From a virus (Duplodnaviria; Heunggongvirae; Uroviricota; Caudoviricetes), in IMG/VR virus record IMGVR_UViG_2721755652_000006: a stretch of DNA of 37,205 nt; one strand, given 5' to 3'. Both the position numbers and the translations under genes were made by a program. Shown here in pieces: positions 12,418 to 37,205 of the stretch. The notes beneath the pieces are model-generated. The model was not told the DNA's origin and searched no databases. It was given only the letters and a program-made list of their open reading frames with translations. Position 1 is the first letter of the stretch. Each line of letters starts with the position of its first letter.

Positions 12418-16098
<3,681 letters not shown>

Positions 16099-16118
<20 letters not shown>

Positions 16119-17417
16119 TCTCCCGCATATTGCCAGCATGGCTTTTAATGAGCCGCTGATGCTTGAACCCGCCTATGCGCGGGTTTTCTTTTGTGCGCTT
16201 GCAGGCCAGCTTGGGATCAGCCGCCTGACGGATGCAGTATCCGGCGACAGCCTGACTGCCGGAGAGGCACCCGCGGCGCTGGCGTTATCCGGTGATGATG
16301 ACGGACCACGACAGGCCCGGAGTTATCAGGTCATGAACGGCATCGCCGTGCTGCCGGTGTCCGGTACGCTGGTCAGCCGGACGCGGGCGCTGCAGCCGTA
16401 TTCGGGAATGACCGGTTACAACGGCATTATCGCCCGTCTGCAACAGGCTGCCAGCGATCCGATGGTGGACGGCATTCTGCTCGATATGGACACACCGGGC
16501 GGGATGGTGGCGGGAGCATTTGACTGTGCTGACATCATCGCCCGTGTGCGAGACATAAAACCGGTATGGGCGCTGGCCAACGACATGAACTGCAGTGCAG
16601 GTCAGCTGCTTGCCAGCGCCGCCTCCCGGCGTCTGGTCACGCAGACCGCCCGGACAGGCTCCATCGGCGTCATGATGGCTCACAGTAATTACGGTGCTGC
16701 CCTGGAGAAACAGGGCGTGGAAATCACGCTGATTTACAGCGGCAGCCATAAGGTGGATGGCAACCCCTACAGCCATCTACCGGGTGATGTCCGGGAAACA
16801 CTGCAGTCCCGGATGGATGCAACCCGCCGGATGTTTGCGCAGAAGGTGTCGGCATATACCGGCCTGTCCGTGCAGGCTGTGCTGGATACCGAGGCTGCAG
16901 TGTACAGCGGTCAGGAGGCCATTGATGCCGGACTGGCTGATGAACTTGTCAACAGCACCGATGCGATCACCGTTATGCGTGATGCACTGGATGCACGTAA
17001 ATCCCGTCTCTCAGGAGGGCGAATGACCAAAGAGACTCAATCAACAACTGTTTCAGCCACTGCTTCGCAGGCTGACGTTACTGGCGTGGTGCCAGCGACG
17101 GAGGGCGAAAACGCCAGCGCGGCGCAGCCGGACGTGAACGCGCAGATCACCGCTGCGGTTGCGGCAGAAAACAGCCGCATTATGGGGATCCTCAACTGTG
17201 AGGAGGCTCACGGACGCGAAGAACAGGCCCGCGTGCTGGCAGAAACCCCGGTATGACCGTGGAAACGGCCCGCCGCATTCTGGCCGCAGCACCACAGAGT
17301 GCACAGGCGCGCAGTGATACTGCGCTGGATCGTCTGATGCAGGGGGCACCGGCACCGCTGGCTGCAGGTAACCCGGCATCTGATGCCGTTAACGATTTGC
17401 TGAACACACCAGTGTAA
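16099..17417 (+). pseudogene. C: Prohead protease C with nested scaffold Nu3 region; reading frame broken about 54 codons before the end (N-terminal frame stops at 17254-17256, C-terminal 54 codons continue in another frame to 17415-17417)
   Basis: GTG start at 16099 overlaps the B 3' end by 20 nt as in lambda; 16099..17417 is 1319 nt, not a multiple of 3; frame switch localises to the CCCC run at 17246-17249. Confidence 0.6.
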
Positions 17418-17426
17418 GGGATGTTT

Positions 17427-17759
17427 ATGACGAGCAAAGAAACCTTTACCCATTACCAGCCGCTGGGCAACAGTGACCCGGCTCATACCGCAACCGCGCC
17501 CGGCGGATTGAGTGCGAAAGCGCCTGCAATGACCCCGCTGATGCTGGACACCTCCAGCCGTAAGCTGGTTGCGTGGGATGGCACCACCGACGGTGCTGCC
17601 GTTGGCATTCTTGCGGTTGCTGCTGACCAGACCAGCACCACGCTGACGTTCTACAAGTCCGGCACGTTCCGTTATGAGGATGTGCTCTGGCCGGAGGCTG
17701 CCAGCGACGAGACGAAAAAACGGACCGCGTTTGCCGGAACGGCAATCAGCATCGTTTAA
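17427..17759 (+). CDS. D: Head decoration protein D
   Basis: 110-aa product [41 protein letters not shown]… matches lambda gpD; the ORF track starts 2 codons upstream at 17421. Confidence 0.93.
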
Positions 17760-20520: not shown

Positions 20521-22926
20521 ATCGGGTAGCAGTGATGCATTACTGCATCACCGCCCCCTAAGAACCGTACGTGCCAGTTTCCCGGCATACGGCTCAAGCC
20601 TTTCTAAGCCCACTCTCATGAGCCGGTTTCACTACATGTATACCTTTCGCATGAACAAGTGTGTGACACATCGGATGCAGCATAATCAAATTGGAGAGGC
20701 AGTTGCTCCCTCCATCGACTCGCCGTATGATGTGATGAACCTGCCACTGGGAATCAGATGTAATCCTCTCATCACATATGGGGCATCGGCCCCGCTGCTC
20801 AAACCAGATTTGAATGAGCTTTTTCCGTCCTTGCAGTTTGTGCCGCATTTTGTCTGCACAACGCTCCTCAAAGTACATCTCCCATTGAGGATCGAACGGA
20901 TTAGCTGCAATTTTAATCGGTTTAAACCGGTTGATAGGCGTATCGATTGCTTTCCTCAGATTTGCATACTGAGGCTTACCGTTGGCAAGGAGTTCTCCGG
21001 TAGCCGTGGAGAAAGACCAGTTTCGGGCACCTTGTTGATGGAAATATCTTTTCCGAATCCACTTCTTTCCCTTATTGGGATGACGCCGAACAGCCCAACG
21101 CCATAAAGCCAGCCAGATCTCATTGTCAACTTTGTTAAATGCGACCTTGGCCACAATGTGTTGATGGTAAGCCGCCCACCCTTTGATCATTGGGTTCAGC
21201 ATGCGGATCAACGTAAGCTGATCCATAGCTTTGTTGCCTTTGATTACAGCGCGTATTTTCTTTAAAAAGGAACTGACATTGGCTTTAGAGGGTTTGATCA
21301 GCATCTTACCGCCATATTTGCGAATGTTCTGTCCAAGAAAATCAAATCCTTCCTCGATATGTGTGATTTTCGTCTTTTCCGGAGAAAGCATTAATCCTCT
21401 TTCAGCCATAAACCGCCTGACGACGGGTAATACCTGAGACTCAAGAAGTTCTTTTGACTCTCCAGTGATAATAAAATCATCAGCATATCTCACATAGTTA
21501 ACTTTCGGGTTAACCAATCGTCCCTTGACTGTTCTCTTTTTAAACTCCGAAGCAAGAAGCGCCTCCAGTCCATCCAGAGCAATGTTAGCCAGTACAGGAG
21601 AAATTATTCCCCCCTGAGGAGTTCCTGAATTTACAGGGAATAACTGCCCCTTTTCCCTGTAACCCGCTTTAAGCCACTTTGTCAGGATTTGTCTGTCTGT
21701 TGAGGTGTTATCGATTAGCCATTGATGAGATATATTGTCAAAGCATCCCCGTATATCCCCCTCAAGCACCCATTCAGCGGATGTTTTCTGCGCAAGAACA
21801 CAGAAGCACTGTGCTATCGCATCTGCAGTAGACCTTCCAGTCCGAAAGCCGAAGGATCTCTGGTCAGCAGTGACTTCAGCAACGGGCTCAAGAGCCAGCA
21901 AATACAACGCCTGCATCGCCCGATCCTTCATAGTGGGTATCCCAAGGGGACGAGACTTCCCATTTGACTTAGGTATATAAACCCGCTTAAGTGGCTGTGG
22001 TTTGTAACCACGCCGTTTCAGCAGGTTAATAGCAAGAAATTTAACCTCCGGGGAAGACCATGTCTGACCATCAACCCCAGGAGTACGTTTCCCGCTATTC
22101 TCTGTAACTCGTCTGACAGCAACTGCTCTGCCACTAAACGAGTGAGTCAGTATCCATTGCAAGGATTTGACCTTGCCATGTTTACCTTCTCGTGTTGCCT
22201 TTACGATACGCGCTTGCAGTCTCCGCACTTCCCGATAGCACTGACGCCAGTTGATACTGTGCCAGGAGTCACCGTTAAGTAAGGACGCACCTTTACAGGT
22301 TGTAGCCTGCTCAGTCATCTGCTTTTCCTTTCTGGAAGATTACTCAAACTCTCTCGTAATGAAAGACCCAGTGGAAGTCTGCCCGCTTTCGCGTAGGGTA
22401 ATGTTGCCGGGCTCAACCCTTATCCGGTCCATTACAGACTGGCATTCGCTTTTTCCACCTTCTTTTACCCGCACCGCCAACAGTATCCCTTGCGGTTAAC
22501 CTGCCTCACGAGGCAGCGATACGGGCTTACCATGTTCCACCTGAATAACAACAGTAGGTTAGACTCTGCTCACAACACCGGTGGTTTATTGTCCGTGTAC
22601 CCCTAGCAAACAGAGGAGTAACCAACCACATACCTTTTGGTTCAAGCCTGTCAGCATCTTTGGCTTGTTCTGGTTAACGACGCTTCAGCAGTTCACATAT
22701 GTTAGTCATGCTACCGAGCCTAGACCTCCTCCGCCTGATGCTGGCAGATTACATGTAACCTCACGGTTTCATGCGATCCGAAGATCCGGTTTCATTGTCC
22801 TGACAGCTTCACACCCCACCGTTACCAGTGACGCATGTGTCAGTAGGCTACTGATGACGGAACATCAGGTTCCCTGACGGAATCGAACTCCGCTGGAACA
22901 ATTATTCAGGCGACTTCATGTCGCAC
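20521..22926 (-). mobile_element. Group II intron (about 2406 bp) with intron-encoded protein, oriented antisense to U
   Basis: On the minus strand the element begins 5'-GTGCGACATGAAG (plus 22926 downward) and ends …CTACCCGAT-3' (plus 20521); domain V-like GAGCCGTATGCCGGGAAACTGGCACGTACGGTTC at plus 20562-20595; the stop of the RT ORF overlaps the domain V start. Confidence 0.85.
20594..22318 (-). CDS. Group II intron-encoded protein: reverse transcriptase / maturase / HNH endonuclease
   Basis: 574 aa; RT motifs including YADD (VRYADDFIITG), a maturase X region, and a C-terminal Cys/His-rich HNH-like segment (CPICDERITSDSQWQVHHIIRRVDGGSNCLSNLIMLHPMCHTLVH). Confidence 0.88.
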   Translation of the reverse strand: MTEQATTCKGASLLNGDSWHSINWRQCYREVRRLQARIVKATREGKHGKVKSLQWILTHSFSGRAVAVRRVTENSGKRTPGVDGQTWSSPEVKFLAINLLKRRGYKPQPLKRVYIPKSNGKSRPLGIPTMKDRAMQALYLLALEPVAEVTADQRSFGFRTGRSTADAIAQCFCVLAQKTSAEWVLEGDIRGCFDNISHQWLIDNTSTDRQILTKWLKAGYREKGQLFPVNSGTPQGGIISPVLANIALDGLEALLASEFKKRTVKGRLVNPKVNYVRYADDFIITGESKELLESQVLPVVRRFMAERGLMLSPEKTKITHIEEGFDFLGQNIRKYGGKMLIKPSKANVSSFLKKIRAVIKGNKAMDQLTLIRMLNPMIKGWAAYHQHIVAKVAFNKVDNEIWLALWRWAVRRHPNKGKKWIRKRYFHQQGARNWSFSTATGELLANGKPQYANLRKAIDTPINRFKPIKIAANPFDPQWEMYFEERCADKMRHKLQGRKKLIQIWFEQRGRCPICDERITSDSQWQVHHIIRRVDGGSNCLSNLIMLHPMCHTLVHAKGIHVVKPAHESGLRKA

Positions 22927-23796: not shown

Positions 23797-24219
23797 ATGT
23801 TCCTGAAAACCGAATCATTTGAACATAACGGCGTGACCGTCACGCTTTCTGAACTGTCAGCCCTGCAGCGTATTGAGCATCTCGCCCTGATGAAACGGCA
23901 GGCAGAACAGGCGGAGTCAGACAGCAACCGGAAGTTTACTGTGGAAGACGCCATCAGAACCGGCGCTTTTGTGGTGGCGATGTCCCTGTGGCATAACCAT
24001 CCGAAGAAGACGCAGATGCCGTCCATGAATGAAGCCGTTAAACAGATTGAGCAGGAAGTGCTTACCACCTGGCCCGCGGAGGCAATTTCTCATGCTGAAA
24101 ACGTGGTGTACCGGCTGTCCGGTATGTATGAGTTTGTGGTGAATGATGCCCCTGAACAGGCAGAGGACGCCGGGCCTGCAGAGCCTGTTTCTGCGGGAAA
24201 GTGTTCGACGGTGAGCTGA
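23797..24219 (+). CDS. G: Tail assembly chaperone G
   Basis: 140-aa product MFLKTESFEHNGVTVTLSELSALQRIEHLALMKRQAEQ… matches lambda gpG. Confidence 0.93.
   Translation: MFLKTESFEHNGVTVTLSELSALQRIEHLALMKRQAEQAESDSNRKFTVEDAIRTGAFVVAMSLWHNHPKKTQMPSMNEAVKQIEQEVLTTWPAEAISHAENVVYRLSGMYEFVVNDAPEQAEDAGPAEPVSAGKCSTVS
24195..24201 (+). promoter_or_regulatory. Programmed -1 ribosomal frameshift slippery heptamer G GGA AAG (G to G-T fusion)
   Basis: GGGAAAG sits in the G frame as X XXY YYZ near the 3' end of G, with the T frame open in -1 from this point. Confidence 0.8.
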
Positions 24220-36624: not shown

Positions 36625-37205
36625 TGGCATTCAGAATGAGTGAACAACCACGGACCATAAAAATTTATAATCTGCTGACCGGAACTAATGAATTTATTGG
36701 TGAAGGTGACGCATATATTCCGCCTCATACAGGTCTGCCAGCAAACAGTACCTATATTGCACCGCCAGATATTCCGGCTGGCTTCGTGGCTGTTTTCAAC
36801 AGTGATGAGTCATCGTGGCATCTCGTTGAAGATCATCGGGGTAAAACGGTTTATGACGTGGCTTCCGGCGACGCGTTATTTATTTCTGAACTCGGCTCAT
36901 TACCGGAAAATGTTACCTGGTTATCGCCGGAAGGGGAGTTTCAGAAGTGGAACGGCACAGCCTGGGTGAAAGATGCAGAAGCAGAAAAACTGTTCCGGAT
37001 CCGGGAGGCGGAAGAAACAAAAAACAGCCTGATGCAGGTAGCCAGTGAGCATATTGCGCCACTTCAGGATGCTGTAGATCTGGAAATCGCAACGGAGGAA
37101 GAAGCCTCATTGCTGGAAGCCTGGAAAAAGTATCGGGTGTTGCTGAACCGTGTTGATACATCAACTGCACCTGATATTGAGTGGCCTGTAATACCTGAAG
37201 TTTAA
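36624..37205 (+). CDS. tfa: Tail fibre assembly protein Tfa
   Basis: 193-aa product [42 protein letters not shown]… matches lambda Tfa; start overlaps the stf stop (TAATG); stop at the window end. Confidence 0.92.

What the first reader, a model, noticed from the sequence alone, without database searches (positions are those of the whole stretch)
17230..17260. Frame break in the C/Nu3 gene about 54 codons before its end
The GTG at 16099 opens the C frame and overlaps B by 20 nt, but this frame stops at 17254-17256. The last 54 lambda-like codons (MTVETARRILAAAPQSAQARSDTALDRLMQGAPAPLAAGNPASDAVNDLLNTPV) continue in a different frame to 17415-17417, 10 nt before D. The span 16099..17417 is 1319 nt, so one base is missing relative to an intact gene, most likely in the CCCC run at 17246-17249. 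This truncates both the protease and the nested scaffold Nu3, or it is a homopolymer sequencing error.
Basis: seen in the sequence. Interest (0 to 1): 0.55.

Follow-up and report, generated by a model that had tools for sequence, protein, structure and literature searches.

The report
Missing C: likely assembly error
The frame break in this prophage's head protease/scaffold gene is really in the sequence, but it is almost certainly a one-base homopolymer error left in a PacBio genome assembly rather than biology, so it is ordinary.

Summary
The lambda-C-like gene opens at GTG 16099 and stops at TGA 17254-17256. The last 54 lambda-like codons run in another frame to 17417, and the run at 17246-17249 has 4 Cs where lambda has 5.

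The window is an exact copy (37205/37205) of GenBank/RefSeq record CP017249 (E. coli O157:H7 86-24, NADC 6565). It is a defective lambdoid prophage beside icd, and RefSeq already flags this gene as "frameshifted".

An independent assembly of the same strain (CP038408) differs from the window at this one base only, and there the gene is an intact 439-codon ORF. Only 6 of 2893 matching complete E. coli genomes have the 4-C form. The four outside this project all carry other broken head or tail genes nearby.

The two NADC records (PacBio RS II, Quiver, Pilon) differ from CP038408 by 0 substitutions and 21 one-base run shortenings in 77 kb of prophage. Three of those are shared by both records.

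Best reading: a residual homopolymer deletion in the assembly (about 0.88). The main rival is a real slippage mutation in the NADC stock, in a prophage that is already dead. Recoding or a functional split is not supported. Interest is low.

The parts
16099..17417 (+). Lambda C homologue (S49 prohead protease with nested scaffold Nu3) as it stands in the record: 1319 nt, broken into two frames. RefSeq annotates it as a pseudogene, 'S49 family peptidase, frameshifted' (BHW76_RS12500).
17246..17249 (+). CCCC run. The run is CCCCC in lambda, EDL933, the independent 86-24 assembly, ATCC 43888 and F6294. This is the site of the missing base.
17254..17256 (+). Premature TGA in the C frame, created by the missing base. 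It overlaps ATG 17253 as ATGA.
17253..17417 (+). 54-codon ORF equal to the last 54 codons of C/Nu3 (Met386 to Val439 of the intact protein). It matches positions 148-201 of the 201-position Nu3 profile phrog_8940.
16813..17417 (+). Nested Nu3 (scaffold) reading frame. The ATG at 16813 corresponds to the lambda nu3 start (lambda 5132). Nu3 is in the C frame, so the same missing base breaks it.
16546..16989 (+). Peptidase_S49 domain (residues 150-297). It lies wholly upstream of the break and is intact.
14517..16118 (+). Portal gene B, intact, overlapping C by 20 nt as in lambda.
17427..17759 (+). Head decoration gene D, intact, immediately downstream.

Best explanation
The frame break is a residual single-base homopolymer deletion (C5 read as C4) in the deposited PacBio-based assemblies of E. 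coli O157:H7 86-24 isolates NADC 6564 and 6565. In the real DNA the gene is most likely an intact 439-codon lambda-C-type prohead protease with its nested Nu3 scaffold. Shown here: the window is that record, an independent assembly of the same strain has five Cs, and the source assemblies are full of exactly this type of error in prophage regions. Inferred: this particular site is one of those errors. Read-level data were not available.
For: (1) The window is 100.000% identical (37205/37205) to NZ_CP017249.1.
(2) The independent assembly of strain 86-24, NZ_CP038408.1, differs from the whole window at one column in 37206, namely this C. It annotates an intact 1320-nt gene, WP_000123254.1.
(3) Of the ten complete genomes that share the lineage-marking gpU::group II intron junction, only the two NADC records have the 1319-nt form of the gene. 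Four relatives were read directly and have 5 Cs: the independent 86-24 assembly, ATCC 43888, F6294 and EDL933, the last of which lacks the intron.
(4) The exact 4-C 68-mer occurs in 6 of 2893 matching complete genomes. The four outside this project each have 2-4 further 'frameshifted' head or tail genes within 12 kb.
(5) The stand-alone 54-aa ORF is called in 853 blocks of public assemblies. All ten long-contig examples have 5-41 gap openings per 6 kb against EDL933; deletions outnumber insertions in every one, and most fall in homopolymers. The exact 385-aa truncated product is on record in only one other assembly, which also has fragmented neighbours.
(6) Method: PacBio RS II, Canu, one round of Quiver, then Pilon with MiSeq reads (PMC5159565).
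(7) Error profile: the sister record 6564 differs from the window only by six further 1-nt run shortenings. In a second 40-kb prophage, 6565 and 6564 differ from CP038408 by 11 and 10 one-base run-length changes and 0 substitutions. Three of these are shared by both NADC records: two C-run deletions of the same kind, and a C8/C9 difference where the NADC records have the longer run.
(8) Over 77 kb, 7 of 69 C/G runs of length 5 are shortened in 6565.
Against: Two separately sequenced and assembled isolates (6564 and 6565) share the deletion, and both were polished with Illumina reads. Three run shortenings are shared by the two records against 0.64 expected if errors were independent within run classes. 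That needs either site-specific systematic bias or some real changes. The independent assembly comes from a different laboratory stock of 86-24, so a stock-specific mutation is not formally excluded. I did not find the near-identical second copy of this gene in the genome, so I could not show that short reads multi-map here.
Confidence: 0.88

Rival explanations
1. A genuine -1 slippage mutation (C5 to C4) arose in the NADC 5570 laboratory stock of strain 86-24. It truncates C to 385 residues and removes the last 54 of Nu3's 201 residues. The prophage is already defective, so the change would be neutral decay.
For: Both NADC isolates share it, and they were sequenced separately and Illumina-polished. 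The prophage is already dead, so nothing selects against the change. It lacks the immunity and early region, O is truncated, and gpU is split by an antisense group II intron. Shared run shortenings exceed the number expected under independence.
Against: There are no substitutions between the NADC and independent 86-24 assemblies in 77 kb, against 21 run shortenings in the NADC records. That is an error spectrum, not a mutation spectrum. Two further shared C-run deletions in the second prophage would also have to be real. Every other occurrence of 4 Cs is in an indel-rich assembly.
Confidence: 0.1
2. The two-frame arrangement is functional. Either ribosomes slip -1 on C CCC G to make full-length C/Nu3, or the ATGA stop-start overlap lets the 54-residue C-terminal segment be made separately by coupled re-initiation.
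For: The stop and the ATG overlap as ATGA at 17253-17256. In principle a Pro-tRNA on CCG could re-pair on CCC one base back (inference only).
Against: The arrangement is not conserved: 6 of 2893 genomes have it, all in error-prone records. Lambda and all close relatives have a single ORF. GAA ACC CCG GTA TGA is not an X XXY YYZ heptamer, and I see no Shine-Dalgarno-like sequence before ATG 17253 on reading the sequence. The window's real programmed frameshift site (G GGA AAG in G/T, 24196-24202) looks quite different.
Confidence: 0.02

Closest known systems
Bacteriophage lambda gene C (S49 prohead protease) with nested nu3 (scaffold), NC_001416 4418-5737 and 5132-5737
   Same: Same position between B and D, same 20-nt overlap with B, same nested ATG for Nu3, and a Peptidase_S49 domain. 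After one C is restored, the product is 430/439 aa identical.
   Different: The record has 1319 nt instead of 1320 and CCCC instead of CCCCC, so the last 54 codons are out of frame.
Residual homopolymer indels in long-read (PacBio RS II or Nanopore) bacterial assemblies, which PGAP reports as 'frameshifted' pseudogenes
   Same: A one-base deletion in a C run. It is absent from an independent assembly of the same strain. Many identical-type changes and no substitutions accompany it in the same records. It recurs at the same run in other indel-rich assemblies.
   Different: It is shared by two separately assembled isolates and survived Pilon polishing. That is less usual, although two other such shared C-run deletions were found.
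Lambda G/GT programmed -1 ribosomal frameshift (tail assembly chaperone)
   Same: It is also a two-frame arrangement inside a lambda morphogenesis gene, and it is present in this window at 24196-24202.
   Different: G/T has a conserved slippery heptamer, G GGA AAG, and is conserved across lambdoid phages. The C break has neither.

Membership tests
Lambda gpC / Nu3 (S49 prohead protease with nested scaffold) | Peptidase_S49 domain | tested here: met
   PF01343, E = 2.5e-43, residues 150-297; phrog_53 head maturation protease, E = 1.9e-172
Lambda gpC / Nu3 (S49 prohead protease with nested scaffold) | Single uninterrupted ORF of about 439 codons between portal B and decoration D | tested here: not met
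   In the record the ORF is split into 385 + 54 codons. The feature is met in the independent assembly of the same strain and after adding one C.
Lambda gpC / Nu3 (S49 prohead protease with nested scaffold) | Synteny Nu1-A-W-B-C-D-E and a 20-nt overlap with B | tested here: met
Lambda gpC / Nu3 (S49 prohead protease with nested scaffold) | In-frame internal start for Nu3 | tested here: met
   The ATG at 16813 aligns with the lambda nu3 start. Residues 239-384 match positions 1-146 of phrog_8940, and the 54-aa ORF matches 148-201.
Lambda gpC / Nu3 (S49 prohead protease with nested scaffold) | Protease and scaffold activity in head assembly | not testable with these tools
   Needs complementation or procapsid assembly assays.
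Long-read homopolymer assembly artefact | One-base length change inside a homopolymer run | tested here: met
   C5 to C4 at 17246-17249
Long-read homopolymer assembly artefact | Absent from an independent assembly of the same strain | tested here: met
   NZ_CP038408.1 has 5 Cs, and this is the only difference in 37206 columns.
Long-read homopolymer assembly artefact | The same records carry many other errors of this class and no substitutions | tested here: met
   21 run shortenings and 0 mismatches in 77 kb across the two NADC records
Long-read homopolymer assembly artefact | Raw reads or Sanger sequence show the longer run | not testable with these tools
   No read data were accessible.
Programmed ribosomal frameshift / recoding site | Two-frame arrangement conserved among relatives | tested here: not met
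   6 of 2893 genomes have it. Lambda and 80 phage records that cover most of the gene show no shared break; the 30 listed rows all span 1320 nt.
Programmed ribosomal frameshift / recoding site | Canonical slippery heptamer X XXY YYZ in the zero frame | tested here: not met
   The zero-frame sequence is GAA ACC CCG GTA TGA.
Programmed ribosomal frameshift / recoding site | Downstream stimulatory RNA structure | not tested
   Not pursued, because the first two features failed.

The most novel reading that the evidence does not exclude
The four-C state is real in the NADC stock, and the split gene still works, either through low-level -1 slippage on C CCC G or through ATGA-coupled re-initiation that yields a separate 54-residue capsid-binding tail. 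A defective prophage could then still supply protease and scaffold in trans to co-resident lambdoid prophages.
Probability: 0.02. Interest if true: 0.3.

Novelty: not a real feature. Interest (0 to 1): 0.04.

Why it matters
It matters only as data hygiene. The gene should be read as intact lambda-type C/Nu3, and the 'frameshifted' flag in CP017249 and CP017251 should not be counted as prophage decay. The same C run is mis-called in many long-read assemblies. That has seeded protein databases with a spurious 54-residue 'hypothetical protein', seen on 415 contigs, and with fragment families. Even if the deletion were real, it would be a neutral lesion in a prophage that already lacks its early region and has a disrupted tail-terminator gene.

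Tried and rejected
(1) I looked for the near-identical second copy of C that megablast reported in the NADC genome ('places_in_record 2'), to test whether short reads multi-map at the site. Three regions were fetched. The prophage at 3.436-3.476 Mb has a protease only 67-70% identical. The ybhC prophage at 3.709-3.758 Mb has an HK97-type head. The mlrA/yehV remnant at 1.718-1.762 Mb has no C gene. The copy was not found and I dropped the search.

(2) I looked up the exact 385-aa truncated product, hoping to find short-read (Logan) assemblies of the NADC isolates. Only one unrelated, error-rich NCBI assembly holds it, so this was uninformative for the NADC stock.

(3) I checked whether the many short-contig occurrences of the 54-aa ORF point to real 4-C alleles. 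The cluster is dominated by 'partial' contig-end fragments, so they are not evidence either way.

(4) The comparative-genomics paper on NADC 6564 does not mention pseudogenes, frameshifts or this gene.

(5) I considered recoding and translational coupling and rejected both for lack of conservation and lack of a slippery motif.

Full report
**What is in the sequence.**
- GTG 16099 opens the frame of a lambda-C-like gene and overlaps the portal gene (14517-16118) by 20 nt.
- That frame ends at TGA 17254-17256 after 385 codons.
- ATG 17253 opens a 54-codon ORF (MTVETARR...NTPV) that ends at 17415-17417. The decoration gene D follows at 17427.
- The run at 17246-17249 is CCCC. Lambda (NC_001416; C = 4418-5737, nu3 = 5132-5737) has CCCCC at the same place and a single 439-codon ORF.
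- Adding one C to the window restores a 439-codon ORF. It is DNA-identical to the EDL933 gene and 430/439 aa identical to lambda C.
- The nested Nu3 start corresponds to ATG 16813.
- The Peptidase_S49 domain (residues 150-297) lies upstream of the break. The break separates positions 1-146 from positions 148-201 of the 201-position Nu3 profile.

**Where the window comes from.** The window is 100.000% identical over all 37205 bases to NZ_CP017249.1, E. coli O157:H7 strain 86-24 isolate NADC 6565.
- It is a lambdoid prophage beside icd.
- The prophage is defective in all O157:H7 genomes examined here. int and xis are followed directly by an O gene missing its N-terminus, with no immunity or early region.
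- In the 86-24 lineage, gpU is also split by a group II intron on the opposite strand.
- RefSeq already annotates the gene as 'S49 family peptidase, frameshifted' in this record and in the sister record NZ_CP017251.1, isolate NADC 6564.

**How common the 4-C form is.**
- With the whole gene as query, 3354 E. coli records match. Only the two NADC records have the 1319-nt form.
- With a 68-nt query centred on the run, the exact 4-C form occurs in 6 of 2893 matching records.
- The four outside this project are MBT-5, PNUSAE008512, ET474 and OY754853. Each has two to four further 'frameshifted' head or tail genes within 12 kb.
- The 30 listed phage records all span 1320 nt.
- The stand-alone 54-aa ORF has been called in 853 blocks of public assemblies. 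All ten long-contig examples carry 5-41 gap openings per 6 kb relative to EDL933; deletions outnumber insertions in every one, and most fall in homopolymers.
- The exact 385-aa truncated product is on record in one other assembly, again with fragmented neighbours.
- The short-contig occurrences of the 54-aa ORF are largely 'partial' contig-end fragments.
- So wherever the 4-C state appears, it sits among other indel errors.

**The direct test.** An independent complete assembly of the same strain, NZ_CP038408.1 (E. coli O157:H7 86-24), covers the whole window. It differs at exactly one of 37206 aligned columns, this C, and annotates an intact 1320-nt gene, WP_000123254.1.
- Ten complete genomes share the gpU::intron junction that marks this lineage. 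Only the two NADC records among them have the 1319-nt form.
- 86-24 (CP038408), ATCC 43888 and F6294 were read directly and have five Cs. So does EDL933, which lacks the intron.

**Error profile of the source assemblies.** The two NADC genomes were made from PacBio RS II reads (Canu, one round of Quiver) and then polished with Pilon using MiSeq reads (PMC5159565).
- The sister record 6564 differs from the window only by six further one-base run shortenings. Five are in the intron and one is in gpK.
- In a second 40-kb prophage, 6565 and 6564 differ from CP038408 by 11 and 10 one-base run-length changes and no substitutions.
- RefSeq flags different sets of genes as 'frameshifted' in the two records.
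- Three of those changes are shared by both NADC records. Two are C-run deletions (C5 to C4 in gpJ, C6 to C5 in gpK). The third is a C8/C9 difference where CP038408 is probably the one in error.
- Over the 77 kb examined, 7 of 69 C/G runs of length 5 are shortened in 6565 and 3 of 69 in 6564.
- A C5-to-C4 change in gene C is therefore exactly what these records produce. The spectrum of 21 shortenings and 0 substitutions is that of consensus error, not of mutation.

**Weighing the rivals.** The main rival is a real slippage mutation in the NADC 5570 stock.
- In its favour, both isolates share the change and both were Illumina-polished. Shared shortenings (3) also exceed the 0.64 expected if errors were independent within run classes.
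- Against it, the two other shared C-run deletions would also have to be real while no substitution occurred in 77 kb.
- Site-specific systematic bias at C runs explains the excess more simply.
- I put the artefact at about 0.88 and the real mutation at about 0.10.
- If real, the change would remove the C-terminal 54 residues shared by C and Nu3. In lambda, C, Nu3 and the portal B form the head-assembly initiator, and Nu3 is reported to interact with the capsid protein E (PMC3224144). The prophage is already non-functional, so the effect would be neutral.

**Functional readings.** Slippage of -1 on C CCC G, or re-initiation at the ATGA overlap, get about 0.02.
- The arrangement is not conserved.
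- There is no X XXY YYZ heptamer.
- I see no Shine-Dalgarno-like sequence before ATG 17253.

**Verdict.** The feature is already flagged in RefSeq and is most likely not a real property of the genome. Interest is very low. The only practical point is that this C run is a recurrent mis-call in long-read assemblies and has seeded databases with spurious fragments of gene C.

Noticed in passing
window 20521-22923 (minus strand): A group II intron with an intact ltrA (20594-22318, minus strand) is inserted antisense inside the tail-terminator gene gpU, so it cannot splice out of the gpU message. Rfam hits are RF00029 at 20521-20597 and RF02012 at 22723-22869. The same junction is present in 10 complete O157:H7 genomes, and the same intron sequence is on pO157 plasmids.
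   Followed up: partly
window 1-2297: The prophage beside icd goes from int (1-1143) and xis straight to an O gene missing its N-terminus (1509-2297). There is no N, cI or cro region. It is therefore defective in all O157:H7 genomes examined here, independently of the C gene.
   Followed up: partly
window 24196-24202: The lambda-type programmed -1 frameshift site G GGA AAG lies at the end of gpG, giving the G/GT tail assembly chaperone. This is the one frame change in the window that is expected to be biological.
   Followed up: no
window 36967-37165 (+): A full-length Rfam IS009 hit (229 bits, gathering score 117) lies inside the tail fibre assembly gene at the right end of the prophage.
   Followed up: no
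window 21264, 21473, 21609, 21757, 21982, 28308 (versus L001): The sister record NADC 6564 (CP017251) lacks one base at each of these six homopolymer runs relative to the window. That makes ltrA and gpK 'frameshifted' there but not here.
   Followed up: yes
L018/L019 versus L020 (second prophage; L020 12630, 13908, 25044): Three run-length differences are shared by both NADC records. Two are C-run deletions in gpJ and gpK. The third is a C8/C9 run where the independent assembly CP038408 has the shorter run and a split terminase, so CP038408 is probably wrong there.
   Followed up: partly
protein databases: Several small PHROG families (phrog_4759, 24195, 20963, 24209) and a 1396-member protein cluster look like fragments of gene C produced by broken or contig-end gene calls. 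The 54-aa ORF is on 415 contigs as 'hypothetical protein'.
   Followed up: no
window 3362-5465: The prophage carries DLP12-like cargo and nin-region genes (emrE, ybcK recombinase, then ybcN, ninE, ybcO, rusA, Q). These are identical in EDL933 and 86-24.
   Followed up: no
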